Under the pieces are notes generated by a model. It did not search any database and was not told the origin of the DNA. It saw only the letters and a program-made list of their open reading frames with translations. This document shows positions 97 to 23,901 of a DNA stretch of 24,000 nucleotides, piece by piece. The position numbers were made by a program, and so were the translations under genes. Numbering within the stretch: the stretch's first letter is position 1; every line of letters begins with the position of its first letter. The DNA comes from Thermococcus sibiricus MM 739 (lineage in GTDB: Archaea; Methanobacteriota_B; Thermococci; Thermococcales; Thermococcaceae). The stretch is from contig NC_012883.1 in the NCBI RefSeq assembly GCF_000022545.1, positions 712,276 to 736,275 of the forward strand. The letters are read 5' to 3'.

Positions 97-735
97 TTAT
101 TGTTTGACCATTTGAAATGCTTTCCATAATCTATTGTTTGTAGATTTTATGATTTTGAAAGTTTTCTCGTCGTCTTTATAGATTTTGATCACAGTGCTGG
201 CTAGTTCTTCCAATAATGGAATCACATAGGGGATGTTATTCATTAGTACATCAGTGTTAATGAAATAAAAGGCAGTTCTTTTCCTACTTCCAGCATATCT
301 AGCAATTGTATTTACTAGGGCTAGAATCTCCAGCTTGGATTCAGCTAGTAAAAACAGTTTGTCGAGTCCAACTATGGGGACTGTTGCGTGTTCTATTCGA
401 GAGAGGATATGCTCATAGTTCATTTCAAATTCTTTTGTTAATGATAGTATATCACTAACCTGAAACCGTGTTATGACGTTCCCTACTTCTAACCTTCCCC
501 CAGTTTTAAGCACTTTTATGTTGTCTAATATTTTGGAGTCTATACCTGCAAGTTCCATCTGACTCTTGTATGTGTAGAGAGTATCGAGAATGTCTTCAAT
601 AACCAAAAAGTAACCTCTTTTTTTACTCCAAGCTGTTAACTCAGCAAGCTCTTTGTATGGAAACATCAGGGAGTCATGTTCTAGAAGCACAGTCTCTCCA
701 AACTTTAGTGAATCCCAAATAATATCTGTTTTCAT
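97..735 (-). CDS. KaiC/RecA-fold protein without a P-loop (DUF257-like), terminal gene of the archaellum cluster
   Basis: 212-aa ORF. Same block order as ArlH (6021-6716): 'FGETVLLEH' sits where ArlH has 'SGSLIFIEGDRGTGKS', and 'LLEELASTVIKI' matches ArlH 'ILEEITTMLIRL'. No GxxxxGK[ST] anywhere. A GGAGGT RBS lies inside the last codons of the upstream ORF, with a 5-nt gap. Clear paralog of 13093-13776. Confidence 0.75.
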   Translation of the reverse strand: MKTDIIWDSLKFGETVLLEHDSLMFPYKELAELTAWSKKRGYFLVIEDILDTLYTYKSQMELAGIDSKILDNIKVLKTGGRLEVGNVITRFQVSDILSLTKEFEMNYEHILSRIEHATVPIVGLDKLFLLAESKLEILALVNTIARYAGSRKRTAFYFINTDVLMNNIPYVIPLLEELASTVIKIYKDDEKTFKIIKSTNNRLWKAFQMVKQ

Positions 736-740
736 ATCTC

Positions 741-4393: not shown

Positions 4394-6019
4394 CTACAAT
4401 CTAAAGCTTAATCCTTGAATGCCCTTTTCATAGAAGTTCTTTATCTCTCTATAGACATCCCAATAGTTAGTTATTCCAAGTTCTGCCATTCTCTGGATTA
4501 TCCTAGCTCTTAGAAATAGCTCGTTGTAAATGTCCTTTGGATCTTCATAACCAGCAACTTCAGCGATTTTCCTCTCAAGGATATATGAATTGTTCATACC
4601 TCTGAATATATGTTTATCACCCACAGAATCCCATTCAAACACACTCCTTGTTGCTACTCCTCCAAGCTCCTCATAATAACCTTCAATCTCAACAACGTTG
4701 AGGATCCTTCTCAGGAATCTTCCCTTAACATATACGGCCTGCTGAAAGAGAGCAATATTCAAATTATCTATAAAAGTCACAGGGACGTTTATTGGATGCC
4801 CGGTAAAACGTTGTATCATCTTCTTTATATCGCCGGCATGAAAAGTTGCCATGACTGGATGGCCCGTTTGCATGGCTTGAAAAGCAATTGCACCCTCTGC
4901 ACCTCTGATCTCACCTACAATGATATAATTTGGTCTTGATCTCAGTGCCGCTTTCAAGAGATCAAAAAGTGTAACTCTGCTTTCCTCAGGTCCTCTTTCT
5001 CTTGTTGTAAGTCTTTGCCAAGTAGGATGAGGAACAACAACCTCTGGAGTGTCTTCAGCAGTAAAAATCTTTGATTGAGGCTTGATGAAAGGAACGATAG
5101 AGTTTAAAGTGGTGGTTTTTCCACTTGCTGTTTCTCCACATACGAAAACACTCATACCATATTCTAATGCAAGCCATAAATATGCCGCGACTTCTGCAGA
5201 AAATGTATTCCACTTTACAAGTTGGACAACACTTAGGGGAGTAGTGGAGAATTTTCTTATTGTAGCTGAGGATCCTTTTATACTAACATCTGGGCTGTAT
5301 ATTATGTTGATTCTTGATCCATCTGGAAGTGTTCCATCAACAATGGGGTTTTTGTCACTAGCAGGCCTTCCAATTCTTTCACTTAAGGCCTTGAGATAAT
5401 CGGCCAATGTAATATTACTCTCAAATTTTATATTGGTGGGTAAAGCATCAAAGATCTTGTGAATTAAAGACACATATTCGGCACCCAATATGTGAATATC
5501 TTCAATATATGGATCTCTAATGAGAACCTCTAATGGCCCAATTCCTACAATATCTCTTTTTATGAGATATCTAAATTTCTCAATTTCTATTTTTGTTATT
5601 TTAACGTTTTTTCTAGAGAAAAAACCCCTATTGTTAATCTTCTGGAGGGCCTCATTATACAGTTGATCTAGGAATATTTCAAATTCCTCCCTGTTTTCGG
5701 GTATTGTCTTTGAAGGAGCAAGTTCAAGAATTTTTTCTTTGACTAGTTCGTATTTTACTCGCTCTTCTGTGTTCTGAATTCTGGGCTCTATTACTATGTA
5801 TTTTCTCTCTGTTTTTGGGTCTCCGTAAATGTGAACAAAAAGAGGGTCTCCGACTGGATATACTATGTTGGGATACTTTATTTCTTTCAGATCTCTGCTC
5901 AGTTGAGTGTAGAATTCTGGAACTTTTCCATATTTTTTAGTAAACTTTTCAACGTATTCTCTTAAGTGTGGATTTCTTGCCATTGCGGTTTCTAAGGTTT
6001 CTCTGCTAATCTCAGCCAT
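4394..6019 (-). CDS. arlI: Archaellum assembly/motor ATPase ArlI (FlaI), type II/IV secretion ATPase family
   Basis: 541 aa. Walker A 'GETASGKTT', Walker B/Asp box 'PNYIIVGEIRGAEG', His box 'GHPVMATFHA'. 1-nt gap to arlH. Confidence 0.95.
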   Translation of the reverse strand: MAEISRETLETAMARNPHLREYVEKFTKKYGKVPEFYTQLSRDLKEIKYPNIVYPVGDPLFVHIYGDPKTERKYIVIEPRIQNTEERVKYELVKEKILELAPSKTIPENREEFEIFLDQLYNEALQKINNRGFFSRKNVKITKIEIEKFRYLIKRDIVGIGPLEVLIRDPYIEDIHILGAEYVSLIHKIFDALPTNIKFESNITLADYLKALSERIGRPASDKNPIVDGTLPDGSRINIIYSPDVSIKGSSATIRKFSTTPLSVVQLVKWNTFSAEVAAYLWLALEYGMSVFVCGETASGKTTTLNSIVPFIKPQSKIFTAEDTPEVVVPHPTWQRLTTRERGPEESRVTLFDLLKAALRSRPNYIIVGEIRGAEGAIAFQAMQTGHPVMATFHAGDIKKMIQRFTGHPINVPVTFIDNLNIALFQQAVYVKGRFLRRILNVVEIEGYYEELGGVATRSVFEWDSVGDKHIFRGMNNSYILERKIAEVAGYEDPKDIYNELFLRARIIQRMAELGITNYWDVYREIKNFYEKGIQGLSFRL

Positions 6020-6020
6020 T

Positions 6021-6716
6021 CTACACCACCGCAGCTATCTCCACTATAAATCCTGCCTTGGGTTCTACTCTAAATGGAATTACCTTCTGAAAAACTCCCA
6101 TAGCATTGTTATACTTCACGATAGTGGCAGAATTTTTCAAGTCTCCTCCGAATACTTTGACCTGCAATCTTATGAGCATTGTAGTTATTTCTTCTAAAAT
6201 CGAGAGTACAGAAGAATCGAGATCACTTGGGTTTGCTGTTAATATTATGGCCTTGTTAAGAGCACTTAATTTTTTGAGATGTTCTGTAAACTTTCTCAAA
6301 GTCTCCTCATCTATTTTTGGAGGTAAAATGGAAGGCAGTGAATCTATGATAATAACATCTTTTTCCCACAATCGTTCCTCGCTCAAGAATCTTGGTAAAA
6401 ACCTTCCTCTTTTAGAAACACTGCTCAAAAGAGGATATAACGACACAAAAAGAAGTTTTCGTTTTGTCAGAAAGGGGATTACGCTATATCCTAGTGATTC
6501 CATTTGATTTATAAATTCAGGGGTTGTGAGTTGGGTAGAAACATAACTAACTTGAATGTCATTTTTTAGAAATCCATAAGCAAGCCTCTGGGAGAATATA
6601 GACTTTCCAGTCCCTCTGTCTCCCTCTATAAATATTAAACTCCCAGAGGGTATTCCTCCACCTAATCGTCTGTGAAGCTCATCATTTGGGATTTGCATTT
6701 TAAGTAAGCGAGTCAT
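6021..6716 (-). CDS. arlH: Archaellum KaiC/RecA-like ATP-binding protein ArlH (FlaH)
   Basis: Walker A 'GDRGTGKS', Walker B 'VIIIDSL'. Start moved to the ATG at 6716 ('MTRLLKMQIP...'), which is preceded by GAGGTGA plus a 5-nt spacer. The 6779 start would overlap arlG by 53 nt. Confidence 0.9.
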   Translation of the reverse strand: MTRLLKMQIPNDELHRRLGGGIPSGSLIFIEGDRGTGKSIFSQRLAYGFLKNDIQVSYVSTQLTTPEFINQMESLGYSVIPFLTKRKLLFVSLYPLLSSVSKRGRFLPRFLSEERLWEKDVIIIDSLPSILPPKIDEETLRKFTEHLKKLSALNKAIILTANPSDLDSSVLSILEEITTMLIRLQVKVFGGDLKNSATIVKYNNAMGVFQKVIPFRVEPKAGFIVEIAAVV

Positions 6717-6726
6717 GGTGTTCACC

Positions 6727-7164
6727 TCAGATTTTGAATATAAATTCACGCTGTTTTCCATTTTCAATGACCACAACAAGTTTGTGATAGCCGGAGGAAA
6801 GAGTAGTACTTATTCTCAACTCGCCGATATCATATGGATAAAGGGTAGATGGTGTCAGCGTGAGATTTGAAGGAGGAATGAGATTCCCGTCAATAAAGAC
6901 AATAATAGTGCTGCTTGTAAAGGAGAATTCCTCACTCCCAGTGTTTTTGATATAGAACACATAAGCTCCACCCAAGAAAGGAATATTCTCTGGATCATTT
7001 ATTATTGTGAAGTCCACTCTGAGATTTTGGGCTATTATTGTTCCTCTAGTGCTTATACTATCTGCTAAGTCCTGGGTCACTATATAAAGACCTCCAGCTA
7101 TTGTTCCTGCGACAAGGAGGGAAACAATGAAAAGGATTATTTCTGAAATTACTGAGCTCGCCAT
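6727..7164 (-). CDS. arlG: Archaellum stator/anchor protein ArlG (FlaG)
   Basis: Archaellin-like hydrophobic N-terminus 'MASSVISEIILFIVSLLVAGTIAGG' followed by a beta-rich domain. Position between arlF and arlH. Start chosen at the ATG at 7164, behind an AAGGTGAT RBS. The longer 7236 start would overlap arlF. Confidence 0.75.
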   Translation of the reverse strand: MASSVISEIILFIVSLLVAGTIAGGLYIVTQDLADSISTRGTIIAQNLRVDFTIINDPENIPFLGGAYVFYIKNTGSEEFSFTSSTIIVFIDGNLIPPSNLTLTPSTLYPYDIGELRISTTLSSGYHKLVVVIENGKQREFIFKI

Positions 7165-7174
7165 TAGTATCACC

Positions 7175-7690
7175 TTAGGAGCAGTACCAAGCTTTTCCAA
7201 CAATAGAAGGTTGACCAATCGTTTGATTTGGATCAAGCCATATCCATTTCCATTCTATTTTCAGAGAACACCCCGTTTCAGTTGCTACTATCAGACTGTG
7301 GATAATTTGATCCTTCACTTCAGTAGTTCGTATTAGTATGGATTCTCCGGGAAGTAAATACGCTTTATCCTCCACTATGAGTGTCGATCCATCGGGCTCC
7401 TTTAGTTGTCCATCACGAATAAAATCCCAATATCTAGGGGATAGGGTGGAGCCATTATTGCTAATATTGAAAGTTATTGTATAGATGGACACATCACTTC
7501 CAGGATTGATGTGAGAGACATCTTGTAGAGCAAGATATGACGTCTGGGATTTTATGAAAGTTTCTTTGTACGTTTCAACGGACTCAGCTATTGAAGTATA
7601 AGTATTCTCGAGAGAGATATAGAGAGTGCCAAATGCCATTATCGACGCAATGAATATCACTGCAAAGCTTGCTGAAACGCTGAATCCCAT
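7175..7690 (-). CDS. arlF: Archaellum stator/S-layer-binding protein ArlF (FlaF)
   Basis: 171 aa. Typical FlaF N-terminus 'MGFSVSASFAVIFIASIMAFG' plus a beta-sandwich-like remainder. Position after arlD. Confidence 0.75.
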   Translation of the reverse strand: MGFSVSASFAVIFIASIMAFGTLYISLENTYTSIAESVETYKETFIKSQTSYLALQDVSHINPGSDVSIYTITFNISNNGSTLSPRYWDFIRDGQLKEPDGSTLIVEDKAYLLPGESILIRTTEVKDQIIHSLIVATETGCSLKIEWKWIWLDPNQTIGQPSIVGKAWYCS

Positions 7691-7701
7691 ACCCTATCCC
7701 C

Positions 7702-8526
7702 TTAAACACCATATACATGTTCAAGAATCTTATTCATCATCTTGAGTTCTCTTTCTAGAGAGTTCAGGACTTCTGGGGTTATTTTAGTACCTCTTAGGCG
7801 CTCAATGAACAGGAGTGATATTAAGTGATCTTGAATCGTAAGTTTGTCATCTGGTTTCCAGTTTGGTTCTCTCTGGTGAGGTCTGGTCCCGTTTGCATAC
7901 TTCAATAGGCTTTCCAATACTTCTTCGGAGATCCACCCTATTGTATAGTAAAACTCAAGGATGTTTTCTAGATTCAGCACTCCTGCTCTGTCGATGAGGA
8001 AACCTAGCCATTTTAGTGCTATCATTGTTGAGGCAGTGTCATTTGGGAGATGATCTAATCTTGCCCTCATTTTTGTTGGGTTTATTAGGGCTTCTCTCAC
8101 ATCTTTCGGAATTTGAAATTCTTCAGTCAAGATTTCTTCCTCCCCACTCATATTATTTTCAATTAATTCAATCTTCGGGGGATCATAACTTTTAATTCCC
8201 TCTTGGTGTTCAACTTCAGGAATTCTCTCTGGAACTCTCTCGGACTTTTCATTAAATTCTTTATGAAGTGTTGTTTTGTCCATTAAATGTCTTCTTATTT
8301 CCTCTAAGTATTTCCCAATCTCTTCTACTCTTTTGTCTAACCTTCTGAGCCTTTCTGCTTGACTTGAATAGTTCTCGAGGACCTTGTTTATGATTAGATC
8401 CACTTGCTCTGGTGTTAAGATGTCTATTTTTGAAACTAATTTGTTTTTTAAGTCCTTGATAAGGACATTAGGTACTTCCCCCTGTAGCTTCTGAAGTTTA
8501 CTGTCTATCTCGTTCTCGGTTATCAT
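7702..8526 (-). CDS. arlD: Archaellum switch-complex protein ArlD (FlaD/E family)
   Basis: 274 aa. C-terminal FlaD/E signature 'LPNDTASTMIALKWLGFLIDRAG...LEFYYTIGWISEEV'. Start overlaps the arlC stop by 4 nt. Confidence 0.85.
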   Translation of the reverse strand: MITENEIDSKLQKLQGEVPNVLIKDLKNKLVSKIDILTPEQVDLIINKVLENYSSQAERLRRLDKRVEEIGKYLEEIRRHLMDKTTLHKEFNEKSERVPERIPEVEHQEGIKSYDPPKIELIENNMSGEEEILTEEFQIPKDVREALINPTKMRARLDHLPNDTASTMIALKWLGFLIDRAGVLNLENILEFYYTIGWISEEVLESLLKYANGTRPHQREPNWKPDDKLTIQDHLISLLFIERLRGTKITPEVLNSLERELKMMNKILEHVYGV

Positions 8527-9008
8527 GTTTCTCCCTCCGAGATTGCTTCGTATATTATCTTGTCGAGGTCTACCCCGTGATAGGCAAGGAGTTTCAAATC
8601 TCCTCTTATCTGTGCTATTTCTTTTCTAATATCTTCGAGATCTTGCTTTAGTTCATGTATTTCTTTTACTATTGGGTTTTCACTATCCAGATCCCTAAAG
8701 GGGTTTATCTCTTGTGATACTACTTCATAGAGCATCATGACATCTTTGATAGTTTTGTCAAGCTTTTCTATTTCATCTCTTAGTTCTTGGATTTGAGACT
8801 TCAAAGTGTCGATGTTGACCTTAATTCTTGGTAGCTCATTTTCGATTTCATTAATTCTGTTCATTATGAGGGTAATTTTTTCTTCATCTTCTTTCTGCTC
8901 TTTTGGGTTTTCTTGAGTGTTTCCTTCACTTAGAGCAAGTTCTAGTTGCTCGATTTCATCTTTTTCTGATTTTTTCTTGAACTTCTCTTTCAAATAACTG
9001 AACGACAT
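8523..9008 (-). CDS. arlC: Archaellum coiled-coil protein ArlC (FlaC)
   Basis: 161 aa, charged coiled coil with the FlaC_arch-type segment 'IKDVMMLYEVVSQEINPF'. Position between arlB and arlD. Confidence 0.8.
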   Translation of the reverse strand: MSFSYLKEKFKKKSEKDEIEQLELALSEGNTQENPKEQKEDEEKITLIMNRINEIENELPRIKVNIDTLKSQIQELRDEIEKLDKTIKDVMMLYEVVSQEINPFRDLDSENPIVKEIHELKQDLEDIRKEIAQIRGDLKLLAYHGVDLDKIIYEAISEGET

Positions 9009-9029
9009 CCCTGTCCCACCCAGGAGTTG

Positions 9030-9060
9030 ATTGAAAATTGAAAAATAGAAAGAATTGAAG
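9030..9060 (-). terminator. T-rich partial terminator/attenuator between arlB and arlC
   Basis: Minus strand after the arlB TGA reads 'TTCAATTCTTTCTATTTTTCAATTTTCAATC' (T5 and T4 runs). Oligo-T tracts are the archaeal termination signal. Confidence 0.4.
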
Positions 9061-9062
9061 CA

Positions 9063-9719
9063 TCACTTGAGCTCTATAATCTTGTAGGTTCCGTAGCTCG
9101 GTGGGGTTATGACCTTGGTGTAACCCGGTGCTCCAAATTCTGGCCTGACCTCAATAGCGATTTCCGTTCTTGTTGGGATTTCACTACCAAATACATCCTT
9201 TGCGTCTACGGTCAGAATCACTACATCTCCAGCGTTTATTGTTGGTGTGTCAGCGCTGAGTGAGTTATCAGCATCTTGAATCACAAGTATTCCAAAGTGA
9301 GTTCCATCGACGTTTGTGCTCCAAGCTCCTGATAATGTGGTATTGTCGAATATGTTGTTGGTGACTGTTTTGTTAAAGGCTCCAGATCCATACTCTAATA
9401 CTGCGACTGTATTTCCATCGTTTAAGTAGAGTTTTGTCTGGGTGAGATCAATTGGTTCGCTTCCTGCATTGAGTGAGATATATATTGCAAGCATGTCTAT
9501 TCCACTAGTACCTACATGACCAACTACCTTGTCTATCTTTAATCCGCTGGCAACTTCTTTTGTTGTTTGTCTTCCTGTGGCTTCTGCTCTTTGTTGCAAG
9601 TAGCCGCTGGTGTTGATGAGTACTGCTGCAGCTACTGCTGCCACTAGAACCATGGCTATAAACACAATCAGGGTACCAATACCAACAGCACCCCTCTTCT
9701 TACCAAAAATAGGCTTCAC
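9063..9719 (-). CDS. arlB: Archaellin ArlB (FlaB), the only copy in this window
   Basis: Class III signal peptide and conserved archaellin N-terminus 'KPIFGKKRG|AVGIGTLIVFIAMVLVAAVAAAVLINTSGYLQQ'. The tracked ORF begins at a TTG (9749). I place the start at the in-frame GTG at 9719, 7 nt after GGAGGTG, which gives a 10-residue leader. Confidence 0.9.
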   Translation of the reverse strand: MKPIFGKKRGAVGIGTLIVFIAMVLVAAVAAAVLINTSGYLQQRAEATGRQTTKEVASGLKIDKVVGHVGTSGIDMLAIYISLNAGSEPIDLTQTKLYLNDGNTVAVLEYGSGAFNKTVTNNIFDNTTLSGAWSTNVDGTHFGILVIQDADNSLSADTPTINAGDVVILTVDAKDVFGSEIPTRTEIAIEVRPEFGAPGYTKVITPPSYGTYKIIELK

Positions 9720-9768
9720 CTTTTGACACCTCCATTGGAAATTCTGCAATAGGATATAAGGTTCTTTG

Positions 9769-9786
9769 ACTATAAATCAATTTTTT
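9769..9786 (-). promoter_or_regulatory. Putative arlB promoter (A-rich BRE plus TTTATA box)
   Basis: Minus strand 'AAAAAATTGATTTATAG'. The TATA hexamer is at 9776-9771, about 52 nt upstream of the GTG start. The predicted TSS near 9747 leaves a leader containing the RBS. Confidence 0.5.
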
Positions 9787-9791
9787 GTTTT

Positions 9792-9835
9792 TACATTAAT
9801 CTTTACACATGTAAGTACATATGTAGGTATATACT
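9792..9835. promoter_or_regulatory. Cluster of TACATA-type hexamers/palindromes upstream of the arlB TATA box
   Basis: TACATT 9792-9797; TACACATGTA 9804-9813; perfect palindrome TACATATGTA 9816-9825 (two inverted TACATA); GTATATAC 9828-9835. Confidence 0.45.
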
Positions 9836-9919
9836 AACATTTGGTAGTAATTTTTAGAATTTGAAGAAATATGATAAAATTGGAATAAAGCCAAGATAAG
9901 ATAAAAGAACAACAAGATG

Positions 9920-10891
9920 TTACAATATTGGCTCAAGAACAAGAACAGATTTTCCATATTCACTTATTTTGGCATCCTTCCCATAGTATTCTAATGCATC
10001 AAGAATCTCAGATTTTTTTGGAAATCTTCTGAATTCTTTTGTGAGTTTTTCGAAAAATTCCCATGCAGCTATGTTTTCAAAATTCTCTCTAAATGGCTCT
10101 ACGATTATTAGTTTCCCTCTTTCATCCACCAAATTCAGAGCCTTTATAATGTTTCTGTGTACTTCAGGAAGATACTCGAGAACAAAACTCATTATAACTA
10201 AGTCATACTTTCTTTTAGGTATGGCATTTGTTATGTCAAGCTCTCTTAGGAACACCCAATCCATACCAAGTTCTCTTATTCTTTGTTGGGCTATGCTTAG
10301 TAATCCTGGGGAAAAGTCAATGCCGATATACTCTCCATTTGGACCCACATGTTTTCCGAGTTCTATCGGTGAGACCGAGCCGCAACCAAGATCAAGGATC
10401 CTCATTCCATCTCTAAGTCCACCAACCCTAACGATTATTTCTCTATATAACTTGTTTAGGGGATTTGAAAGTCGAATGTCCCAAAAGTCCGAGTCTTTGT
10501 CAAAGTCCATCATCACTTTAGAATTCTCGAAAGATAAAAATGCATAATTTGCCATTCTGACGATCTCATCTTGTATGTCAATCCATTCTGGAATAATATC
10601 TCGTAATCTCTCATATTCAAGGGTAAAAGTACGTAAGAACCTTTTAGGGCTTAATTCAGTCCCCTTAGCTTCTAGAATTCCTAACTCATAATATGCACTT
10701 AGTAGTGCTCTTAAGTAGGCTTTATTTTTGACATCTATTAAGTTTAAAATATCTTCAAGGGTTTTAGTTTTGTCCAGTTCCTTAAAAACGCCTAATCCCA
10801 ATCCAATTTTGACTGCATTAAAGAACGAAAAGTCAATAAGAGTTGAGAGATTGAAATCGAACTGTTTTATTAAGTCATCCATTTTTTGCAC
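9920..10891 (-). CDS. Class I SAM-dependent methyltransferase with an N-terminal dimerisation/wHTH-like domain
   Basis: 323 aa. Motif I 'RILDLGCGSVSP', acidic loop 'YIGIDFS', motif IV-like 'YDLVIMSFVLEY'. 1-nt gap after the wHTH gene. Confidence 0.85.
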   Translation of the reverse strand: MQKMDDLIKQFDFNLSTLIDFSFFNAVKIGLGLGVFKELDKTKTLEDILNLIDVKNKAYLRALLSAYYELGILEAKGTELSPKRFLRTFTLEYERLRDIIPEWIDIQDEIVRMANYAFLSFENSKVMMDFDKDSDFWDIRLSNPLNKLYREIIVRVGGLRDGMRILDLGCGSVSPIELGKHVGPNGEYIGIDFSPGLLSIAQQRIRELGMDWVFLRELDITNAIPKRKYDLVIMSFVLEYLPEVHRNIIKALNLVDERGKLIIVEPFRENFENIAAWEFFEKLTKEFRRFPKKSEILDALEYYGKDAKISEYGKSVLVLEPIL

Positions 10892-10892
10892 C

Positions 10893-11213
10893 TCACATAA
10901 ATCTACTATAATATGATTGATAAGTTTTTAGGAATCCAACAACTTTTTCCCCGTGCTCAGTAAGTTTGTAATATTTAAACCCATTTTGAGTAATCTCCTC
11001 TACCAAGCCAAGATGAACTAAGGAACTATCTCCATTATAGCGGTTTCCCATGCCGACTAGGGCCCCTTTTACATTGGAAGGATCTGATCTGACGATTCTA
11101 GCAATCTCGGAAAGGTATGTAGGAGAGGGGTAAATCTCATGTAAGTAGAAAAGAATCTTTTTTCTTAGTTCGCTCCTGTGTAATGATCGTAAGATGTGAG
11201 GATCAATTACCAA
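10893..11213 (-). CDS. Small winged-helix transcription regulator, candidate archaellum regulator (EarA-like?)
   Basis: 106 aa. 'RKKILFYLHEIYPSPTYLSEIARIVRSDPSNVKGAL' is an HTH followed by a wing ('LVEEITQNGFKYYKLTEHG'). TTG start behind a GGGGGGA RBS. Located directly upstream of the arl genes. Confidence 0.65.
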   Translation of the reverse strand: MVIDPHILRSLHRSELRKKILFYLHEIYPSPTYLSEIARIVRSDPSNVKGALVGMGNRYNGDSSLVHLGLVEEITQNGFKYYKLTEHGEKVVGFLKTYQSYYSRFM

Positions 11214-13928: not shown

Positions 13929-13945
13929 TATCACCCGAGGTGAAA
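13929..13945 (+). promoter_or_regulatory. Thermococcales glycolytic motif (TGM)-like operator TATCAC-N5-GTGAAA
   Basis: TATCAC 13929-13934, spacer CCGAG, GTGAAA 13940-13945. One mismatch to the TATCAC-N5-GTGATA consensus. Sits between the TATA box and the eno ATG. Confidence 0.6.
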
Positions 13946-13948
13946 GCA

Positions 13949-15241
13949 ATGGAAAATCCCTTTGAAATTACCGGAATCTTTGCAAGGGAAATCTTGGATT
14001 CGAGGGGAAACCCAACAATTGAGGTTGATGTATACACTCCTGTCGCAATGGGGAGAGCAGCTGTTCCAAGTGGGGCTTCAACAGGAATTCACGAGGCCTT
14101 GGAGCTTAGAGACGGTGGAAAGAGATACCATGGAAAAGGCGTTAAGAGGGCCGTTGAGAACGTCAACAAGATAATTGCCCCGGAGCTTCTTGGTATGGAT
14201 GTCACACTCCAGAGGGACATTGATATGTTCATGCTTGAGCTTGATGGCAGTGAAAACAAGAGCAATCTTGGTGCAAACGCTATTCTCGGAGTTTCATTAG
14301 CAGTTGCAAAAGCAGCAGCAAATGCTCTTGAAATACCACTTTACCGCTACTTGGGCGGGGCAAACGCTTACGTTTTGCCTGTTCCAATGAGCAACGTTAT
14401 CAACGGTGGAGCCCATGCAGGCAACGATTTAGACTTCCAAGAGTTCATGATCATGCCGGTTGGTGCAAAGAGCTTTAGGGAAGCAATTCAGATGGTAAGC
14501 GAGACCTACCACACCCTAAAGAAGATTCTCATTGAGAAGTACGGCAAGTTAGCGGTCAACGTTGGTGACGAAGGCGGTTTTGCTCCCCCGATGAAAGAGG
14601 TCACTGAGCCTTTGGATGCTCTTGTGAAGGCAATTGAAGAGACCGGCTACAAGGTTGGAGATGAAATAGCATTCGCCCTTGATGTCGCTTCAAGCGAGTT
14701 CTATGAAGAAGAAAAGAATGTGTACATTGTTGGGGGCAAGGAATATACAAGAGAGGGGCTCATCGACCTTTACAAAGATCTTGTTTCAACATACCCAATA
14801 GTTTCTATTGAGGATCCAGTTCAGGAGGAAGACTTTGAGGGCTTTGCAATGGTTACAAAGGAGCTTGGAAAGAAGATTCAGCTTGTTGGCGATGACATCT
14901 TTGTTACAAACGTGAAGAGACTTAAGAAGGGCATTGAAATGGGGGCTGGAAATGCACTTCTCCTCAAGGTAAATCAGATCGGAACTTTAAGTGAAGCAAT
15001 AGACGCTGCTTATCTGGCCTTTAGAGCAGGCTATGGAGTTGTTGTTTCTCACCGCTCAGGTGAAACGGAAGGTTCAACAATTGCCGACATAGCTGTTGCA
15101 TTAAATGCTGGCCAGATCAAGACGGGAGCACCAGCAAGAAGCGATAGAAATGCTAAATATAACCAGCTCCTAAGAATTGAAGAGGAACTTGAGGGCGTGG
15201 CATACTATCCGGGTAAGAAGTTTAGAAATCCACTACTTTGA
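13949..15241 (+). CDS. eno: Enolase (2-phosphoglycerate dehydratase)
   Basis: '[16 protein letters not shown]', '[19 protein letters not shown]', '[18 protein letters not shown]', '[23 protein letters not shown]'. Start set at the ATG at 13949 (GAGGTGA plus 5 nt) rather than the GTG at 13940. Confidence 0.97.
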
Positions 15242-15270
15242 TTTTTCTCTTCTTTGTGTATTCTTTCTCT
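15242..15270 (+). terminator. T-rich tract after eno
   Basis: 'ATTTTTCTCTTCTTTGTGTATTCTTTCTCT' begins directly after the stop codon. Confidence 0.35.
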
Positions 15271-15279
15271 GGAGATATC

Positions 15280-15287
15280 TTTAAATA
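15280..15287 (+). promoter_or_regulatory. Putative promoter TATA box (TTTAAATA) of the ATPase/PIN cassette
   Basis: Lies 34 nt upstream of the ATG at 15321. GGTGA RBS at 15310-15314. Confidence 0.4.
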
Positions 15288-15320
15288 TTCTCATAACTTA
15301 GATAAAGATGGTGAAAACTT

Positions 15321-16368
15321 ATGCTTACAAAAATGCTTATTAAGAATTATAAATCAATCAAAAAAGCAGAGCTGGAGTTCTCGAAAATTAATGTTCTCGT
15401 AGGCCCAAATGGAAGTGGAAAACATCTATTTTGGAATGTGCCGAGGTTCTGAGGAATCCATACATATACGCTAGACATATAACTCCTACTCCACCTATTT
15501 TTGAAAGAGACGTTCTTGAAAACTTATTTGAGATTAACTTCTTTGATGAAATAGTCCATGCCCACGATGTTTCTAAGACAATTCACATAAATGCTGATTT
15601 TAAAGACGTAGAAATACTAAAAGTTGAGGTCTCATTGTCAAAAGAAAAAGGTACTAGAAGACTAACTGGCAGTCATTCCTCCAACAGAGACTTAAAAATG
15701 GAACTTTCGCGAATACTTCATATTCTAAAAACTAACCGTAGAGTAGGGCGAAGATTGGGGGAGTTTTGGCAAATACATCCGCTGTTGATACATCAAATTC
15801 TCATGCAATTTTTTATTATGCTTGTTATCGTTCAGAATTCCAGGAAAATATTAGAATCATTCGTGAGTTTTATACAAAATATGGTCTCCAAAATCTCAGA
15901 TGGGTGCCAACAGAAACACAAGGCCAGTACGAAATTATTGCAACGACTCCGGGAGGAGTTGACATAAATCTCACAGATGCAGGTGCAGGATTAAATGCGC
16001 TTTTCCCAATAGTAACAGCTCTGGCATTTTATCCCAAAGGAAGTACAATTTTCATTGAACATCCAGAAATGCATCTTCATCCAAAACTTCAGTATGAACT
16101 TGCTGAGTTCTTCTTAATGGTATCAAAGAAGAGAGAGTATCAACTGATAATTGAGACTCATTCGGAGCACTTGCTATATGGGTTGTTAAATGCCGTAGCC
16201 TCGAGACGTTTATCGCCAGAGGAACTCGTTATTTACTCATCACAGAAAGAGCAAGAAGAGTCAGTCTTTAATAGGCTTATTGTTCATGAAGACGGAAGTG
16301 TTGAAGGGGATCTTCAAGACTTTTTTGAAGCAGATATAGATGTATTCCTTGATTGGCTAAAAGCATGA
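15321..16368 (+). pseudogene. ABC-type AAA_15/AAA_21 (DUF3696-like) ATPase, frame broken twice (15419-15422 and about 15757-15767)
   Basis: Frame 0: 'MLTKMLIKNYKSIKKAELEFSKINVLVGPNGSGK' (Walker A), then a premature stop. The next frame continues 'TSILECAEVLRNPY...'. The third frame (ORF 15766-16368) carries 'DAGAGLNALFPIV' (signature-like), 'STIFIEHPEMHLHP' (Walker B/D-loop), 'IIETHSEHLL' (H-loop) and 'DFFEAD'. The reconstructed product is about 349 aa. Confidence 0.75.
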
Positions 16369-16378
16369 GGGGAAGATA

Positions 16379-16891
16379 ATGATTGTCATTGTGCTTGATA
16401 CCAATGTGCTTAGAAGAGCTCTTGAAGAAGAAAAAGGTCTAAAAGGTGATGAGGGAACTAAACTTGCATATGAAATCATTACAGAGTTGATTAAAATTAA
16501 ACATGAAGATACCATTTTTGTAATTAATGAAGATACCGCAAGTGAGTATTATCGTCATTTAGAGGCTCTTAAGAAGCGACTCAAGCAGTCAAGAATCACC
16601 CCACAGTCTTTCAAATTGCTTTCCTCAATACTACGAAAAATGAGAAAAGTTCCAACAGAAAATCATAAGTTTGAGATAGAAGGGGAAGCCATTGGGAGAA
16701 AGGACTATTATTTGCTAAATTCTGCAAAAACAGGGGCCTTAGAGTTCAAAGTTGAAGATGCATTCGTTTTAACTTTTGCCCAAGATGTTTATAGAAGCAA
16801 GAGGGCCAAAAATGGCCACGGGGTTACTATCTACTTAATCAATCTTAAAGATGAAAAAGAAAGAAAACTTCTTGCGCAAAGGATTACTTAA
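16379..16891 (+). CDS. PIN-like domain protein (putative nuclease partner of the ATPase)
   Basis: 170 aa. N-terminal 'MIVIVLDTNVL' is the classic PIN strand-1 Asp motif. Further acidic positions at 'VINEDTASE', 'RKDYYLLNSA' and 'VEDAFVLTFAQD'. A GAGGGG RBS overlaps the ATPase stop, with a 10-nt gap. Confidence 0.55.
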   Translation: MIVIVLDTNVLRRALEEEKGLKGDEGTKLAYEIITELIKIKHEDTIFVINEDTASEYYRHLEALKKRLKQSRITPQSFKLLSSILRKMRKVPTENHKFEIEGEAIGRKDYYLLNSAKTGALEFKVEDAFVLTFAQDVYRSKRAKNGHGVTIYLINLKDEKERKLLAQRIT

Positions 16892-16893
16892 AT

Positions 16894-17574
16894 TTAAGGC
16901 TTTCTGACAACTATCAAGGCGTGGTCTTTCTCGTAGGGCTCTAGTGAAATTCTTTCAACTACCTCAAAGTATTCACTGAGTTCTTTTTCAACTTCTCTAA
17001 AAACTTCTTCAGGTTCTTTTGTCACGTCTATGCTTCTGCTCTTAATTGAAATCATTCCATATCCGCCGCTCTTCAAGTAGGCCTTTGCGTTATCAATGAG
17101 TATTTTGGCTTGTGTTGGCTGGGCAACGTCCTCAAAAATTACATCCACTTTTGTAACAAGGGCCCTATACTCTTCAGGTTTTGTTGCGTCACCTAAGATG
17201 GGTACGATATTTCTTCTCTCTTCCACAAGGGGAACTAATTCTCTAAGGACTCTCGGTGAGAACTCAATACCGAAGATTTTTCCTTCCCAGCCTATGATGT
17301 CGCTTACGTGTGAAGCCGTAGTACCGCTTGCTATTCCCAGGTAAAGGACAGTAGTTCCGGGCTTTATTGGGAAATTTTTGAGGTCGTTGAGAATTGCCGC
17401 GGCAAGCTTTGACCTGTTTGGATTCCAGATTCTATATTCCTCGCCTTTCCATTTGACTATTCTCTCTCCATAAACCTTTTGACCGGGCACTAGATTTTTA
17501 GTTGCTATTCTTTCACTTCCGTCATCTTCAATAACAGTATAGACTCCAGGGAATTTATGCTTTTTAACGTTCAT
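16894..17574 (-). CDS. flpA: Fibrillarin, C/D box sRNP 2'-O-methyltransferase
   Basis: 226 aa. '[16 protein letters not shown]', SAM motif '[18 protein letters not shown]', '[13 protein letters not shown]'. 5-nt gap after nop5. Confidence 0.96.
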
Positions 17575-17579
17575 TTACC

Positions 17580-18824
17580 TCACCTCCTCCTGGCTCTCTC
17601 TCCTCCTTTCTTTTGCTTTTTCTCTTTTCCTCTGAATTTCTTCTCTTTCCCTTTCTTTTTGAATTTTTTCTTCTTCTCTTTCTTCACTGGTTTTTCTTTT
17701 CGTTTTGGAGGGTTTGGATACTTCTCTTTGATCTCCTTTATTCTAATCTCGATCTCATTTTTGAGTTCTTCTGCTATATATTCGCCGGAGAAGTAGTCCA
17801 CTCTAGCAGCAATGGCTAATTTTCCAGCCAAAGCTCTTGCAATTTTTCCCCTCTGCCACCAGGGAGATTTGTTAATTGCAGGATACTGGTAGATAATACC
17901 ATGCTTTGGAGGTTTAGCACCGCTCCTTAAGTGCCTGAACAATGCTTTTTCTGCACCTAAAACCTGAATAGTAGAGGATGGCATCAGGGCCAGTTCTTTC
18001 AATCCTCCAGCCAAGCTTATTAACCTGGCTCCAAGCTTTGCACCTACTAGAGCTTTTAGATTGGGCGCGACGTCATCCATAGCTCTCTCAATGTAATCTT
18101 CTATCTCACTTCTTAGTTTGTATAAATCTTCTATTTCTTTAGCGAGGTTTTGGATAACTGTGATATCTTTTTGGTCCATCCAGGCACCCATTGTTTTTTC
18201 TTTGACTTCCAAAACTCTTGCTATCTTGTTTTCACCTAGACCAAAAGATTCTAGGTTTTCCCTCGTGATATTTTTTCTGTTTCCAATTTTTTTAATAAAG
18301 GCAACATATTGTGGGTGCTTGGGCAGAATCTCATCGATTTCGGGGAAGTGAAGTGAGTACCATTCTCTAAGTCTTGAAACTAGGAGGTTAATGACTTTAT
18401 CAATATCATCCAGCGCCTCTATGGCTTGAATTATCATTTTATCTCTTGCACCACTTTGCTCTTGTATCCTAGCTCTTGTGAGATTTATACTTGTTTTAAA
18501 GTATTTTTCAAACCAATCTGACCCTAAGAATTCTTCTGGATTTTCTCTAAGCTTCTCCCCTGCCAGGTTTGGAAATTCCACATCAACGTCAAACCCAGCT
18601 TCTCTGACTTTTCTACTTAGTTCAGGGTGCTCGACAGCAAACCTTGAATATCCATTTTCTTTCAATTCTTCCAAAAGATCAAGGAGGTCATCAATGATTT
18701 CTCCCTTAAGTAGTTTGTCTAGTGCGGCTTCTGGACTCTCTGTGAAGATTCTCTTTCCAATGAGATTGCCACCCTCATCAAAGGCATAAATCCCCTGTAC
18801 ATTTTCGCTTATGTATGCTTTCAT
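17580..18824 (-). CDS. nop5: Nop5 (Nop56/58) C/D box sRNP core protein with a lysine-rich C-terminal tail
   Basis: NOSIC/Nop domain 'AKLGARLISLAGGLKELALMPSSTIQVLGAEKALFRHL'. Tail 'KRKEKPVKKEKKKKFKKKGKEKKFRGKEKKQKKGG'. Start set at the ATG at 18824 ('MKAYISEN'), 5 nt after GGTGA. Confidence 0.93.
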   Translation of the reverse strand: MKAYISENVQGIYAFDEGGNLIGKRIFTESPEAALDKLLKGEIIDDLLDLLEELKENGYSRFAVEHPELSRKVREAGFDVDVEFPNLAGEKLRENPEEFLGSDWFEKYFKTSINLTRARIQEQSGARDKMIIQAIEALDDIDKVINLLVSRLREWYSLHFPEIDEILPKHPQYVAFIKKIGNRKNITRENLESFGLGENKIARVLEVKEKTMGAWMDQKDITVIQNLAKEIEDLYKLRSEIEDYIERAMDDVAPNLKALVGAKLGARLISLAGGLKELALMPSSTIQVLGAEKALFRHLRSGAKPPKHGIIYQYPAINKSPWWQRGKIARALAGKLAIAARVDYFSGEYIAEELKNEIEIRIKEIKEKYPNPPKRKEKPVKKEKKKKFKKKGKEKKFRGKEKKQKKGGERARRR

Positions 18825-19013
18825 GAGCATCACCTTTTCTATTCTTTGCTAAAGAAGTATAAAAGAGTTGGGCTTTTAAAGGTACGGAGCTGATAAACTT
18901 TATAGTCAATTGTCGAAAAAATATTACACATTTACCGAAAGACTTTTATAAGAGCCATACTTAACCTTCGAGAGAACACAGTCAAGTTCATTTAAAAAAG
19001 AAGGTGATGCCCA

Positions 19014-23823: not shown

Positions 23824-23901
23824 GGGCCCGTGGTCTAGACTGGTTATGACGTCGCCCTCACACGGCGAAGGTCCGGGGTTCGAATCCCCGCGGGCCCACC
23901 A
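23824..23901 (+). tRNA. tRNA-Val: tRNA-Val (anticodon CAC) with genomically encoded CCA
   Basis: Hand-folded cloverleaf. Acceptor GGGCCCG/CGGGCCC. Anticodon stem TCGCC/GGCGA with loop CTCACAC (CAC at 23859-23861). T arm CGGGG-TTCGAAT-CCCCG. Discriminator A, then CCA at 23899-23901. Confidence 0.93.

What the first reader, a model, noticed from the sequence alone, without database searches (positions are those of the whole stretch)
15280..16891. AT-rich two-gene cassette (ABC-type AAA_15/21-DUF3696-like ATPase plus PIN-like protein) between eno and flpA: candidate uncharacterised archaeal defence/abortive-infection module
Stitching three frames together gives an ATPase of about 349 aa. It has an N-terminal Walker A ('VLVGPNGSGK|TSILE'), a signature-like 'DAGAGLNALFPIV', Walker B/D-loop 'IFIEHPEMHLHP', H-loop 'ETHSEHLL' and a 'DFFEAD' tail. 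From memory, this motif pattern belongs to the AAA_15/AAA_21/DUF3696 ATPases that drive ATPase-plus-nuclease defence pairs such as Septu PtuA/PtuB-HNH, PARIS AriA/AriB-Toprim, AbiL and OLD/Gabija. Here the translationally linked partner (RBS overlapping the ATPase stop) starts 'MIVIVLDTNVL', a PIN-type first strand, with later acidic residues at PIN-like spacing. I know of no named system that pairs this ATPase class with a PIN effector. The cassette has its own TATA box (15280-15287). It sits directly after the eno terminator and ends 2 nt from the convergent flpA stop. It is compositionally foreign: my hand counts of single 60-nt lines give about 30-35% G+C (lines 15601, 16081, 16441, 16621), against about 40-55% in enolase (lines 14041, 14401, 14881) and about 42% in flpA (line 17101).
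Basis: partly seen in the sequence, partly recalled or inferred. Interest (0 to 1): 0.75.

Follow-up and report, generated by a model that had tools for sequence, protein, structure and literature searches.

The report
Decaying archaeal ATPase plus PIN defence pair
Between the enolase and fibrillarin genes of a Thermococcus genome lies a dispensable two-gene unit, an ABC-type ATPase followed by a PIN-like nuclease, that looks like an archaeal version of a bacterial anti-phage system shown to work in E. coli (HEC-03), but here the ATPase gene is broken.

Summary
An ABC ATPase of 349 aa, spread over three reading frames (15321-16368), is followed 10 nt later by a 170-aa ORF (16379-16891), between eno and flpA.

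**What it is**
- The repaired ATPase passes Pfam AAA_15 and AAA_21. Its best PADLOC matches are Menshen NsnB and the HEC-03 ATPase. Its model resembles Septu and retron PtuA.
- The partner has no family above threshold. A confident model has PIN topology, weak hits are almost all PIN, and D7/E56/D109/D136 are conserved.
- In 13 distinct lineages of Thermococcus, Pyrococcus, Archaeoglobus and unidentified metagenome contigs, the partner always follows the ATPase directly.

- ATPase-plus-PIN pairs are already known: HEC-03 is a tested two-gene phage defence.
- Composition is only mildly AT-rich. The evidence that the pair is accessory is presence or absence: close relatives have empty sites, a different cargo, or remnants.
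- This copy is decaying. The frameshift in Walker A is shared by two other assemblies, and further lesions differ between strains.

**Verdict:** a new archaeal variant of a known kind, non-functional here. It is moderately interesting for archaeal immunity and for its unexplained linkage to nop5-flpA.

The parts
15280..15287 (+). TTTAAATA, a candidate archaeal TATA box for the cassette
   Evidence: Read directly. Conserved in the 93%-identical relatives L004 and L016. Function not tested.
15309..15313 (+). GGTGA Shine-Dalgarno-like site, 7 nt before the ATPase ATG
   Evidence: Read directly. Relatives start with the same MLTKMLI N-terminus.
15321..16368 (+). ABC (OLD-ABC/AAA_15) ATPase pseudogene, 349 codons once two -1 frameshifts are repaired
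   Evidence: Three-frame translation. Pfam AAA_15 1e-31 and AAA_21 3e-25. PADLOC NsnB 1.5e-43 over the full length and HEC-03 ATPase model 9e-38. Intact relatives at 87-92% identity.
15419..15422 (+). Frameshift 1: an A4 run where intact relatives have A5; it breaks Walker A after GPNGSGK
   Evidence: DNA alignment. The same lesion is in the window, L001 and L002, which are separate assemblies. L004 has A5.
15757..15761 (+). Frameshift 2: a G5 run one base short of the in-frame relatives; specific to the window
   Evidence: DNA alignment. L001, L002 and L004 keep the frame here. A sequencing error cannot be excluded for this one.
15976..15996 (+). Signature-like motif DAGAGLN (GxG type)
   Evidence: D220, G222 and G224 are invariant in 35 relatives. 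L001 and L002 carry a 6-nt in-frame deletion here. NsnB also has GxG in place of SGG (PMC12065111).
16057..16068 (+). Walker B region EHPE: the usual D-E pair is E-H
   Evidence: E247, H248, P249 and E250 are invariant. Distant relatives have EQ or EL at the same place. NsnB has EN.
16318..16365 (+). C-terminal tail DFFEADIDVFLDWLKA, the candidate partner-binding helix
   Evidence: Helix 340-348 in the model, at low confidence. Conserved D334, F335, E337 and D339. Alignment to plasmid DUF3696 proteins runs to residue 340. Pfam DUF3696 itself is not hit.
16367..16372 (+). GAGGGG Shine-Dalgarno-like site overlapping the ATPase stop codon
   Evidence: Read directly. In all relatives the tblastn match to the partner begins between 22 nt before and 17 nt after the end of the ATPase match.
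16379..16891 (+). 170-aa PIN-like partner, ORF intact; candidate catalytic residues D7 (16397-16399), E56 (16544-16546), D109 (16703-16705), D136 (16784-16786)
   Evidence: AlphaFold2 pLDDT 85.7 and pTM 0.82 with PIN-like strand and helix order. Foldseek best hit is the PIN protein AF1683, E 0.022. PIN_3, PIN_12 and PIN hit 20, 12 and 12 of 28 members, all below threshold. The acidic residues are invariant.
16709..16711 (+). Tyr111, where the family has a nearly invariant His two residues after D109
   Evidence: Alignment A2. Shared with the 99%-identical P0001. Possible loss-of-function change; this is inference.

Best explanation
This is a decaying copy of a self-contained two-gene immunity module of the 'ABC ATPase plus nuclease effector' kind. 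It is an archaeal counterpart of bacterial HEC-03 and of the NsnB-NsnC core of Menshen.

**Proposed mechanism in intact copies (inferred from the related systems, not shown here):**
1. The ATPase forms ATP-bound dimers or tetramers.
2. Its C-terminal tail holds the small PIN-like protein.
3. The ATPase senses a virus or plasmid product.
4. The PIN protein is then released or activated and cuts RNA through its D-E-D-D site, which stops growth of the infected cell.

The Walker B catalytic Glu is replaced by His. This suggests an ATP-binding switch with slow hydrolysis rather than a motor.

**In this window the module is dead or dying.** The ATPase has lost its frame inside Walker A, and again 338 nt later. 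The partner ORF is still open but carries H111Y next to the putative catalytic Asp.
For: **Shown here**
- ATPase family and fold: Pfam AAA_15 and AAA_21 above threshold. PADLOC NsnB 1.5e-43, HEC-03 ATPase 9e-38, AriA 5e-35. AlphaFold2 pLDDT 90.4; Foldseek to PtuA of Septu and retron I-A, Rad50, SMC and OLD at E of about 1e-13 to 1e-14.
- Partner: a confident model with beta1-D7, beta2 then E56, D109 at a helix N-terminus, and beta4 then D136. The top PDB hits are enriched for PIN proteins. PIN-clan Pfam hits recur across members. The acidic residues are invariant in close relatives and kept in distant ones.
- Strict pairing: the partner lies directly downstream in every one of 13 distinct lineages where the contig allows a test. 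These include relatives of the partner detectable only with a profile.
- Accessory nature: empty eno-flpA sites in L017 and L019. Empty nop5-IF2B or flpA-IF2B sites in nine species. A remnant in L021. The pair also sits at unrelated loci in Pyrococcus kukulkanii, Archaeoglobus and L099.
- Decay: frameshift 1 is shared by three assemblies. The window alone has frameshift 2. L001 and L002 have a 6-nt deletion in the signature motif, and L001 also has a nonsense codon.

**From the literature**
- HEC-03 (ATPase plus VapC-like PIN) needs both genes for phage defence and appeared toxic when induced.
- The NsnB tail is predicted to clamp the PIN-like domain of NsnC.
Against: - No defence function, RNase activity or ATPase-partner contact has been tested for this family.
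- The partner fails every curated threshold: Pfam PIN families, the PADLOC HEC-03 PIN model, and PDB sequence search.
- Foldseek TM-scores for the partner are only about 0.4.
- Profile-profile comparison with HEC-03-type PIN proteins is not significant: probability 8%, N-terminus only.
- No defence genes flank the pair in Thermococcus. Its neighbours there are housekeeping genes.
- The pair was not found on plasmids, phages or viral contigs.
Confidence: 0.6

Rival explanations
1. Toxin-antitoxin or addiction module rather than immunity. The PIN protein is a VapC-like toxin, the ATPase is its neutraliser, and the pair persists selfishly.
For: The partner is PIN-like with a D-E-D-D set. Distribution is patchy, with remnants. 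HEC-03 appeared toxic on induction. Pfam describes AAA_21 as a putative AbiEii toxin of a type IV TA system.
Against: There is no VapB-like small DNA-binding antitoxin gene. The ATPase gene is lost first in the window lineage without loss of the partner ORF, which is hard to square with an essential antitoxin unless H111Y had already disarmed the toxin. The pair is not on plasmids. Its nearest tested relative acts as a phage defence. The two readings are not mutually exclusive.
Confidence: 0.15
2. The partner is a catalytically silent PIN-like adaptor, like the inPIN domain of Menshen NsnC. The pair then lacks its own effector or works through another protein.
For: The best ATPase model is NsnB. 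NsnC N-domains are PIN-like and inactive. Structural similarity to true PIN enzymes is weak.
Against: NsnC inPIN domains lack the D-E-D-D residues and carry a C-terminal nuclease. Here the four acidic positions are invariant in 28 members and kept in distant relatives. There is no extra domain and no third conserved gene.
Confidence: 0.1
3. The frame breaks are sequencing errors at homopolymers, and the source organism has an intact, working module.
For: Both breaks lie in homopolymer runs, A4 and G5. The second is unique to the window.
Against: The first break is identical in two metagenome assemblies from separate samples (L001, L002). Those also carry other independent lesions: a 6-nt deletion and a nonsense codon. 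Substitution density in the cassette is 3-5 times that of its flanks within this lineage.
Confidence: 0.08
4. A housekeeping RNA-processing pair tied to the C/D-box sRNP genes nop5 and flpA, for example a Nob1-like PIN nuclease with an ATPase partner.
For: In Thermococcus the pair lies next to nop5-flpA in three different gene arrangements.
Against: It is absent from most Thermococcaceae flpA loci, including one whose flpA is 99% identical (L017). It is pseudogenised or reduced to remnants in several lineages. It sits at unrelated loci in Pyrococcus, Archaeoglobus and others. Its dN/dS is 5-15 times that of eno and flpA.
Confidence: 0.05

Closest known systems
HEC-03 (Hma-embedded candidate 03; Payne et al., bioRxiv 10.1101/2024.01.29.577857; models in PADLOC-DB v2)
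   Same: A two-gene unit: an ABC ATPase of the DUF3696/NsnB-like branch, followed at once by a PIN protein of about 160-180 aa, often with overlapping stop and start codons. The window ATPase hits the HEC-03 ATPase model at 9e-38. Both partners begin with a (V/I)DTNV strand. In HEC-03 both genes are required for defence.
   Different: The archaeal ATPase is about 110 aa shorter (349 against 461-469). It matches the HEC-03 model best over its C-terminal part only and has no Pfam DUF3696 hit. The partner is not recognised by the HEC-03 PIN model, and profile comparison is not significant. The RNA ligase gene seen after the plasmid HEC-03 pairs is absent. The hosts are hyperthermophilic archaea.
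Menshen NsnB-NsnC (Millman 2022 system; analysis in PMC12065111)
   Same: The best full-length ATPase model is NsnB (1.5e-43, residues 1-338 on model positions 1-334 of 345). Both have an altered Walker B (EH here, EN in NsnB) and a GxG signature. The partner of the ATPase is a PIN-like domain that the ATPase C-terminal tail is predicted to hold.
   Different: There is no NsnA (ParB-DUF262) sensor gene at any locus. The partner is a single domain without a C-terminal nuclease, and it keeps D-E-D-D, whereas NsnC inPIN domains have lost those residues.
Septu (PtuA-PtuB) and retron I-A effectors; PARIS (AriA-AriB)
   Same: PtuA gives the closest solved structures for the ATPase (8eea, 8sux, 9n69; E about 1e-14). 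AriA models hit at 5e-35. The logic is the same: an ABC ATPase oligomer bound to a separate nuclease effector.
   Different: Their effectors are HNH (PtuB) or Toprim/DUF4435 (AriB), not PIN. Those ATPases are larger and have different inserts.
VapBC type II toxin-antitoxin pairs
   Same: A small PIN-fold protein with four conserved acidic residues. PDB hits include VapC4 and PAE2754.
   Different: There is no VapB antitoxin gene. The upstream partner is an ABC ATPase. Sequence scores against PIN families are below threshold.

Membership tests
OLD-ABC / Pfam AAA_15-AAA_21 ATPases | Profile match above the curated threshold | tested here: met
   AAA_15 scores 111.4 bits (cut-off 32.1) and AAA_21 scores 90.2 bits (cut-off 27) on the repaired protein.
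OLD-ABC / Pfam AAA_15-AAA_21 ATPases | ABC ATPase fold close to PtuA, OLD and Rad50 heads | tested here: met
   Model of the 92%-identical P0007 has pLDDT 90.4. Foldseek finds PtuA, Rad50, SMC and OLD at E of 1e-13 to 1e-14.
OLD-ABC / Pfam AAA_15-AAA_21 ATPases | Uninterrupted reading frame with an intact Walker A in this window | tested here: not met
   A -1 frameshift follows GPNGSGK at 15419-15422 and a second lies at 15757-15761.
HEC-03 | ATPase matches the HEC-03 ATPase model | tested here: inconclusive
   PDLC04148 scores 9e-38, but its best stretch covers only residues 210-339 and NsnB scores higher. True HEC-03 ATPases score 7e-134.
HEC-03 | Partner matches the HEC-03 PIN model | tested here: not met
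   No PDLC04147 hit at E<=1 for the window partner, and none at E<=0.01 for P0127, P0142 or the L103 partner. The plasmid partners score 2e-24. hhalign probability is 8%.
HEC-03 | Gene order: ATPase, then a small PIN gene, tightly coupled | tested here: met
   The gap is 10 nt here. In relatives the tblastn match to the partner begins between 22 nt before and 17 nt after the end of the ATPase match.
HEC-03 | Both genes confer defence against viruses | not testable with these tools
   Needs expression and infection assays.
Menshen (NsnABC) | Adjacent NsnA gene (ParB-DUF262 plus ParBDB) | tested here: not met
   The flanking genes are eno, flpA, nop5, IF-2B or unrelated genes. No third gene is conserved at the loci examined.
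Menshen (NsnABC) | NsnB-type ATPase: model match, Walker B without the DE pair, GxG signature | tested here: met
   PDLC03878 scores 1.5e-43 over the full length. EH and AGAG are invariant. NsnB features as described in PMC12065111.
Menshen (NsnABC) | DUF3696 C-terminal tail on the ATPase | tested here: inconclusive
   No PF12476 hit at E<=1. A distant relative in L103 hits at 0.0056, below threshold. The alignment to DUF3696 proteins reaches residue 340.
Menshen (NsnABC) | NsnC: an inactive PIN-like N-domain plus a C-terminal nuclease domain | tested here: not met
   The partner is one 170-aa domain with conserved D7, E56, D109 and D136.
PIN domain superfamily | Profile match above the Pfam threshold | tested here: not met
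   PIN_12 scores 16.3 bits (cut-off 32) and PIN 14.4 bits (cut-off 23.6). Across members PIN_3 hits 20 of 28, best E 5e-4, and no member's hit passes the curated cut-off.
PIN domain superfamily | Three-layer alpha/beta/alpha fold with PIN strand order | tested here: inconclusive
PIN domain superfamily | Four conserved acidic residues at strand ends or helix starts | tested here: met
   E56, D109 and D136 are invariant in 28 members, and D7 is conserved in at least 90% (two members are cut at the N-terminus). All four are kept in the distant relatives P0158-P0164. Their positions relative to the model's strands fit. Spatial clustering was not checked.
Septu / PARIS | HNH (PtuB) or Toprim/DUF4435 (AriB) effector | tested here: not met
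   No such Pfam or PADLOC hit for the partner.

The most novel reading that the evidence does not exclude
The archaeal pair is a distinct, minimal system in which an NsnB-like ATPase directly controls an active PIN RNase. Its repeated placement beside nop5-flpA, in three different arrangements, is not accidental. Either the nop5-flpA borders are a preferred integration or recombination site for this module, or the nuclease acts on rRNA or C/D-box sRNP substrates.
Probability: 0.1. Interest if true: 0.6.

Novelty: new variant of a known kind. Interest (0 to 1): 0.35.

Why it matters
Few archaeal immune systems beyond CRISPR and restriction-modification have been described, and current detectors would miss this pair. 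Its partner matches no PADLOC, Pfam or NCBIfam model, and its family is tiny: 12 hits among 1.84 billion representative proteins.

Recognising it as a counterpart of HEC-03 and Menshen would extend the 'ABC ATPase plus nuclease' design to hyperthermophilic archaea. It would also offer a compact pair of 349 and 170 aa from hyperthermophiles for structural work on how such ATPases hold and release an effector.

The natural series of intact, broken, remnant and empty loci shows that the module is gained and lost quickly.

This particular copy is inactivated, so its value is comparative rather than functional.

Tried and rejected
- **PDB sequence search with the partner profile.** Only noise.
- **Profile-profile comparison with HEC-03-type PIN proteins.** Not significant, so I do not claim homology between the two partner families.
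- **Mobile-element carriage.** No hit for the partner in plasmids or phages, or for its alignment in IMG/VR viral contigs. ATPase hits on plasmids are distant DUF3696 proteins only.
- **Insertion scars.** No direct or inverted repeats flank the cassette, and the empty sites show no remnant. The mode of gain or loss is unknown.
- **Composition as evidence of foreign origin.** Rejected as weak.
- **Programmed frameshifting.** tRNA-Lys could slip -1 on the A run, but no stimulatory element was found, the second break would also need correcting, and relatives carry other lesions. Rejected by inference.
- **Literature.** The ABC ATPase classification paper by Krishnan et al. (2020) could not be read.
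- **Context of the distant partner P0159.** Uninformative, because the contig ends just upstream of the gene.
Full report
**1. What is in the sequence**

The ORF list and three-frame translations show an ATPase reading frame that starts at ATG 15321, preceded by GGTGA at 15309-15313.
- It runs to GPNGSGK.
- It continues in the -1 frame from 15422 (TSILECAEV... to ...RRLG).
- It continues again in the -1 frame from 15760 (GVLANTS... to ...DWLKA), with stop TGA at 16366-16368.

The breaks lie in an A4 run (15419-15422) and a G5 run (15757-15761). The stitched product is 349 aa.

Ten nucleotides after the stop, behind a GAGGGG site, a 170-aa ORF runs from 16379 to 16891. It ends 2 nt from the convergent flpA stop codon. 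eno (13940-15241) lies upstream, and flpA (16894-17574) and nop5 (17580-18833) lie downstream on the minus strand.

**2. Composition**

The cassette is 36.2% G+C. The window is 39.5%, eno 45.9%, flpA 41.7% and nop5 39.9%. Among all 1612-nt windows of this sequence the cassette is at the 5th percentile, and the minimum is 33.9%. It is mildly AT-rich but not outside the host range. Composition alone does not show foreign origin.

**3. The ATPase**

- The repaired protein passes Pfam AAA_15 (1e-31) and AAA_21 (3e-25). DUF3696 is not hit at E<=1.
- In PADLOC-DB the best model is Menshen NsnB (1.5e-43, full length). Next come the HEC-03 ATPase model (9e-38, mainly residues 210-339), AriA (5e-35) and PDC-M55A. 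AbiLi, Old, GajA and PtuA follow further down.
- NCBIfam gives only N-terminal P-loop matches below threshold.
- Relatives with intact genes of 347-349 aa exist at 87-92% identity. About 35 cluster representatives at 48-65% identity come from Thermococcus, Pyrococcus kukulkanii and Archaeoglobus.
- In their alignment Walker A, R140, the signature D-x-G-x-G, EHPEMHLHP, ETHSEH and the C-terminal D-F-x-E-x-D are invariant or nearly so.
- The Walker B pair is E-H instead of D-E. More distant relatives have E-Q or E-L. NsnB is reported to have E-N and a GxG signature (PMC12065111).
- A model of the 92%-identical P0007 is confident (pLDDT 90.4, pTM 0.89). It ends in a low-confidence helix at 340-348.
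- Foldseek places the model next to PtuA of Septu and retron I-A, then Rad50, SMC and OLD. By sequence the nearest solved chain is a Thermus OLD nuclease.

**4. The partner**

- Alone it gives only sub-threshold PIN_12 (E 0.014) and PIN (E 0.06) hits. Nothing credible appears in PADLOC or NCBIfam.
- The family is very small. There are 6 relatives in the first search, 34 with a profile, and only 12 hits at E<=0.001 among 1.84 billion representative proteins.
- A source names the P. kukulkanii member 'PIN domain-containing protein'.
- When every member is scanned, PIN_3, PIN_12 and PIN are hit by 20, 12 and 12 of 28 members. No other family is hit by more than 3.
- AlphaFold2 with the 28-sequence alignment gives pLDDT 85.7 and pTM 0.82. 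The element order is strand 2-6, helices 8-18 and 25-39, strand 45-49, helices 51-70 and 79-87, short strands, helix 110-122, strand 127-132, strands 142-144 and 150-155, then helix 159-169. From my knowledge of PIN structures, this is the PIN order.
- E56, D109 and D136 are invariant in the 28 members and D7 is conserved in at least 90%. D7 follows strand 1, E56 lies in the helix after strand 2, D109 starts the helix after strand 3, and D136 follows strand 4. The distant 142-153-aa relatives keep all four.
- Foldseek against PDB finds no significant match. The top hit is the PIN protein AF1683 (E 0.022, TM 0.43-0.47). PAE2754, VapC4, Nmd4, the PIN-like RNase P HARP and T5 exonuclease also rank high.
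- I conclude that the partner is a divergent PIN-like protein, probably catalytic. The fold is supported but not proven. I could not check whether the acidic residues cluster in space.

**5. The two genes are one unit**

In every locus where the contig allows a test, the partner lies directly downstream on the same strand. The tblastn match to the partner begins between 22 nt before and 17 nt after the end of the ATPase match.

This holds in 13 distinct lineages: the window group, L004-8, L016, L009-11, L012-14, L015, L024, L027, P. kukulkanii, Archaeoglobus, L099, L103 and L104. L103 and L104 carry partners detectable only with a profile, and their genes overlap the ATPase genes.

No third gene is conserved. 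In particular there is no ParB/DUF262 gene.

**6. It is accessory and often lost**

I scanned one genome per species for flpA and searched the 27 Thermococcaceae loci by tblastn. The pair lies next to nop5-flpA in three arrangements:
- eno> [pair>] <flpA <nop5 (window, L001-8, L016)
- <flpA <nop5 [pair>] <IF-2B (L009-15, L027, L031)
- nop5> flpA> [pair>] <IF-2B (L024)

Each arrangement has empty counterparts:
- flpA and eno are 40 bp apart in L017 (flpA 99% identical) and 70 bp apart in L019.
- IF-2B abuts nop5 in six species.
- IF-2B abuts flpA in three species.

L021 keeps only fragments of both genes. In L022 the eno-flpA gap holds a different cargo: a radical-SAM/SPASM enzyme and an ABC transporter.

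Elsewhere the pair sits among small hypothetical genes (P. kukulkanii, L099) or between unrelated housekeeping genes (Archaeoglobus). No flanking repeats or scars were found. It was not found on plasmids, phages or viral contigs.

It is therefore not met, although the neighbours are housekeeping genes.

**7. This copy is decaying**

A DNA alignment shows four kinds of lesion:
- The A-run frameshift in Walker A is shared by the window and two metagenome assemblies from separate samples (L001, L002). The 93%-identical L004 has A5 and an intact gene.
- The G-run frameshift is unique to the window.
- L001 and L002 carry a 6-nt deletion inside DAGAGLN.
- L001 also has a nonsense codon after YSSQK.

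Within this 99%-identical group the cassette has 3-5 times more substitutions per site than eno, flpA, nop5 or the HMG-CoA synthase gene.

The partner ORF is intact everywhere. However, the window lineage has Tyr at position 111, where the family has a nearly invariant His, and the sister strains add T8P beside D7. In L009-11 it is the partner that is frameshifted.

Over the longer comparison with L004, dN/dS is 0.22 for the ATPase and 0.33 for the partner, against 0.04 for eno and 0.02 for flpA. The pair was therefore under purifying but relaxed selection before it decayed.

**8. Comparison with what is known**

- The ATPase's nearest plasmid-borne relatives are 'DUF3696 domain-containing proteins' on Aeromonas and Rhodococcus plasmids. 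Each is overlapped by a 169-177-aa gene beginning (V/I)DTNV and followed by an RNA ligase gene.
- These match PADLOC HEC-03 models at 7e-134 (Aeromonas ATPase; the Rhodococcus ATPase was not scanned) and 2e-24 (both small proteins).
- The HEC-03 preprint describes an ABC ATPase plus a VapC-like PIN protein. Both genes are required for phage defence in E. coli, and the system appeared toxic on induction.
- The Menshen analysis predicts that NsnB tetramers clamp the PIN-like N-domain of NsnC through the C-terminal tail. It likens this to the Septu and PARIS complexes.
- A further preprint lists OLD-ABC ATPases paired with PIN endoRNases.
- A bacterial-type contig at 59% G+C (L100) also has a DUF3696 ATPase overlapping a 165-aa (V/I)DTNV protein.

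The design is therefore known and has been tested in bacteria. The archaeal family differs in four ways:
- a shorter ATPase without a detectable DUF3696 profile;
- a partner family that none of the existing models detects, and whose homology to HEC-03 PIN proteins I could not show;
- no NsnA gene and no ligase gene;
- retention of the PIN acidic set that Menshen NsnC has lost.

**9. Mechanism and verdict**

Shown here: family, fold, pairing, accessory status and decay.

Inferred from HEC-03, Menshen, Septu and PARIS: the ATPase oligomer holds the PIN protein, senses an invader, and frees or activates the RNase to abort infection. The E-H Walker B suggests ATP binding with slow hydrolysis.

The main rivals are an addiction module, a silent PIN adaptor, sequencing error, and a housekeeping role with nop5-flpA. 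All are less likely, for the reasons listed under each.

I class the finding as a new archaeal variant of a known kind, inactive in this window. Interest is 0.35.

Noticed in passing
window 15242-15320 and 16892-16893; L017 7185-7225; L019 3967-4037; L022 8723-11599: The eno-flpA spacer is a variable spot. It is empty in two close relatives, holds the ATPase-PIN pair in others, and in L022 holds a different three-gene cargo: a radical-SAM/SPASM enzyme, an ABC ATPase and a permease.
   Followed up: partly
window 15321-18833; L012 3921-7556; L024 128-3647: In Thermococcus the pair lies beside nop5-flpA in three different gene arrangements, each with empty counterparts. Simple inversions do not obviously connect them, and the reason for the linkage is unexplained.
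   Followed up: partly
window 13940-17574 compared with L004 1118-4740 and L016 1561-5175: Against L004, synonymous divergence is lower in the cassette (dS 0.13-0.18) than in eno (0.28) or flpA (0.66). ATPase identity ranks L004 above L016, while flpA identity ranks L016 above L004. This hints at exchange of the cassette between close lineages.
   Followed up: no
L009/L010 6001-6513; L021 6138-6605: Other decaying copies exist. In L009-L011 the partner gene is frameshifted: a 141-aa call, with the conserved C-terminus continuing in another frame. L021 keeps only fragments of both genes.
   Followed up: partly
L105 3128-5756 (Aeromonas plasmid); L106 3110-5672 (Rhodococcus plasmid): HEC-03-type ATPase-PIN pairs on two unrelated conjugative plasmids are each followed by an RNA ligase gene (PF09414 at 2e-33 on the Aeromonas one; the Rhodococcus one is annotated as an RNA ligase family protein). 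This hints at RNA cutting and repair. The preprint text I searched describes HEC-03 as a two-gene system.
   Followed up: no
PADLOC-DB models PDLC04147 and PDLC04148: The database labels the ATPase model 'HEC-03B' and the PIN model 'HEC-03A'. The preprint text uses the opposite labels.
   Followed up: no
window 16057-16062; L103 2859-3986; L104 135-725: The catalytic Glu of Walker B is replaced throughout this ATPase family: EH in the close family and EQ or EL in distant members. Menshen NsnB has EN. This suggests ATP binding without fast hydrolysis.
   Followed up: partly
window 97-11213 and 23824-23901: A long minus-strand gene run at 97-9749 looks like an archaellum operon, judged only from the flagellin annotation of the equivalent region in L001. 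It is followed by a methyltransferase gene (9920-10891) and an EarA regulator gene (10893-11213). A tRNA-Val(CAC) lies at 23824-23901. All ordinary.
   Followed up: no
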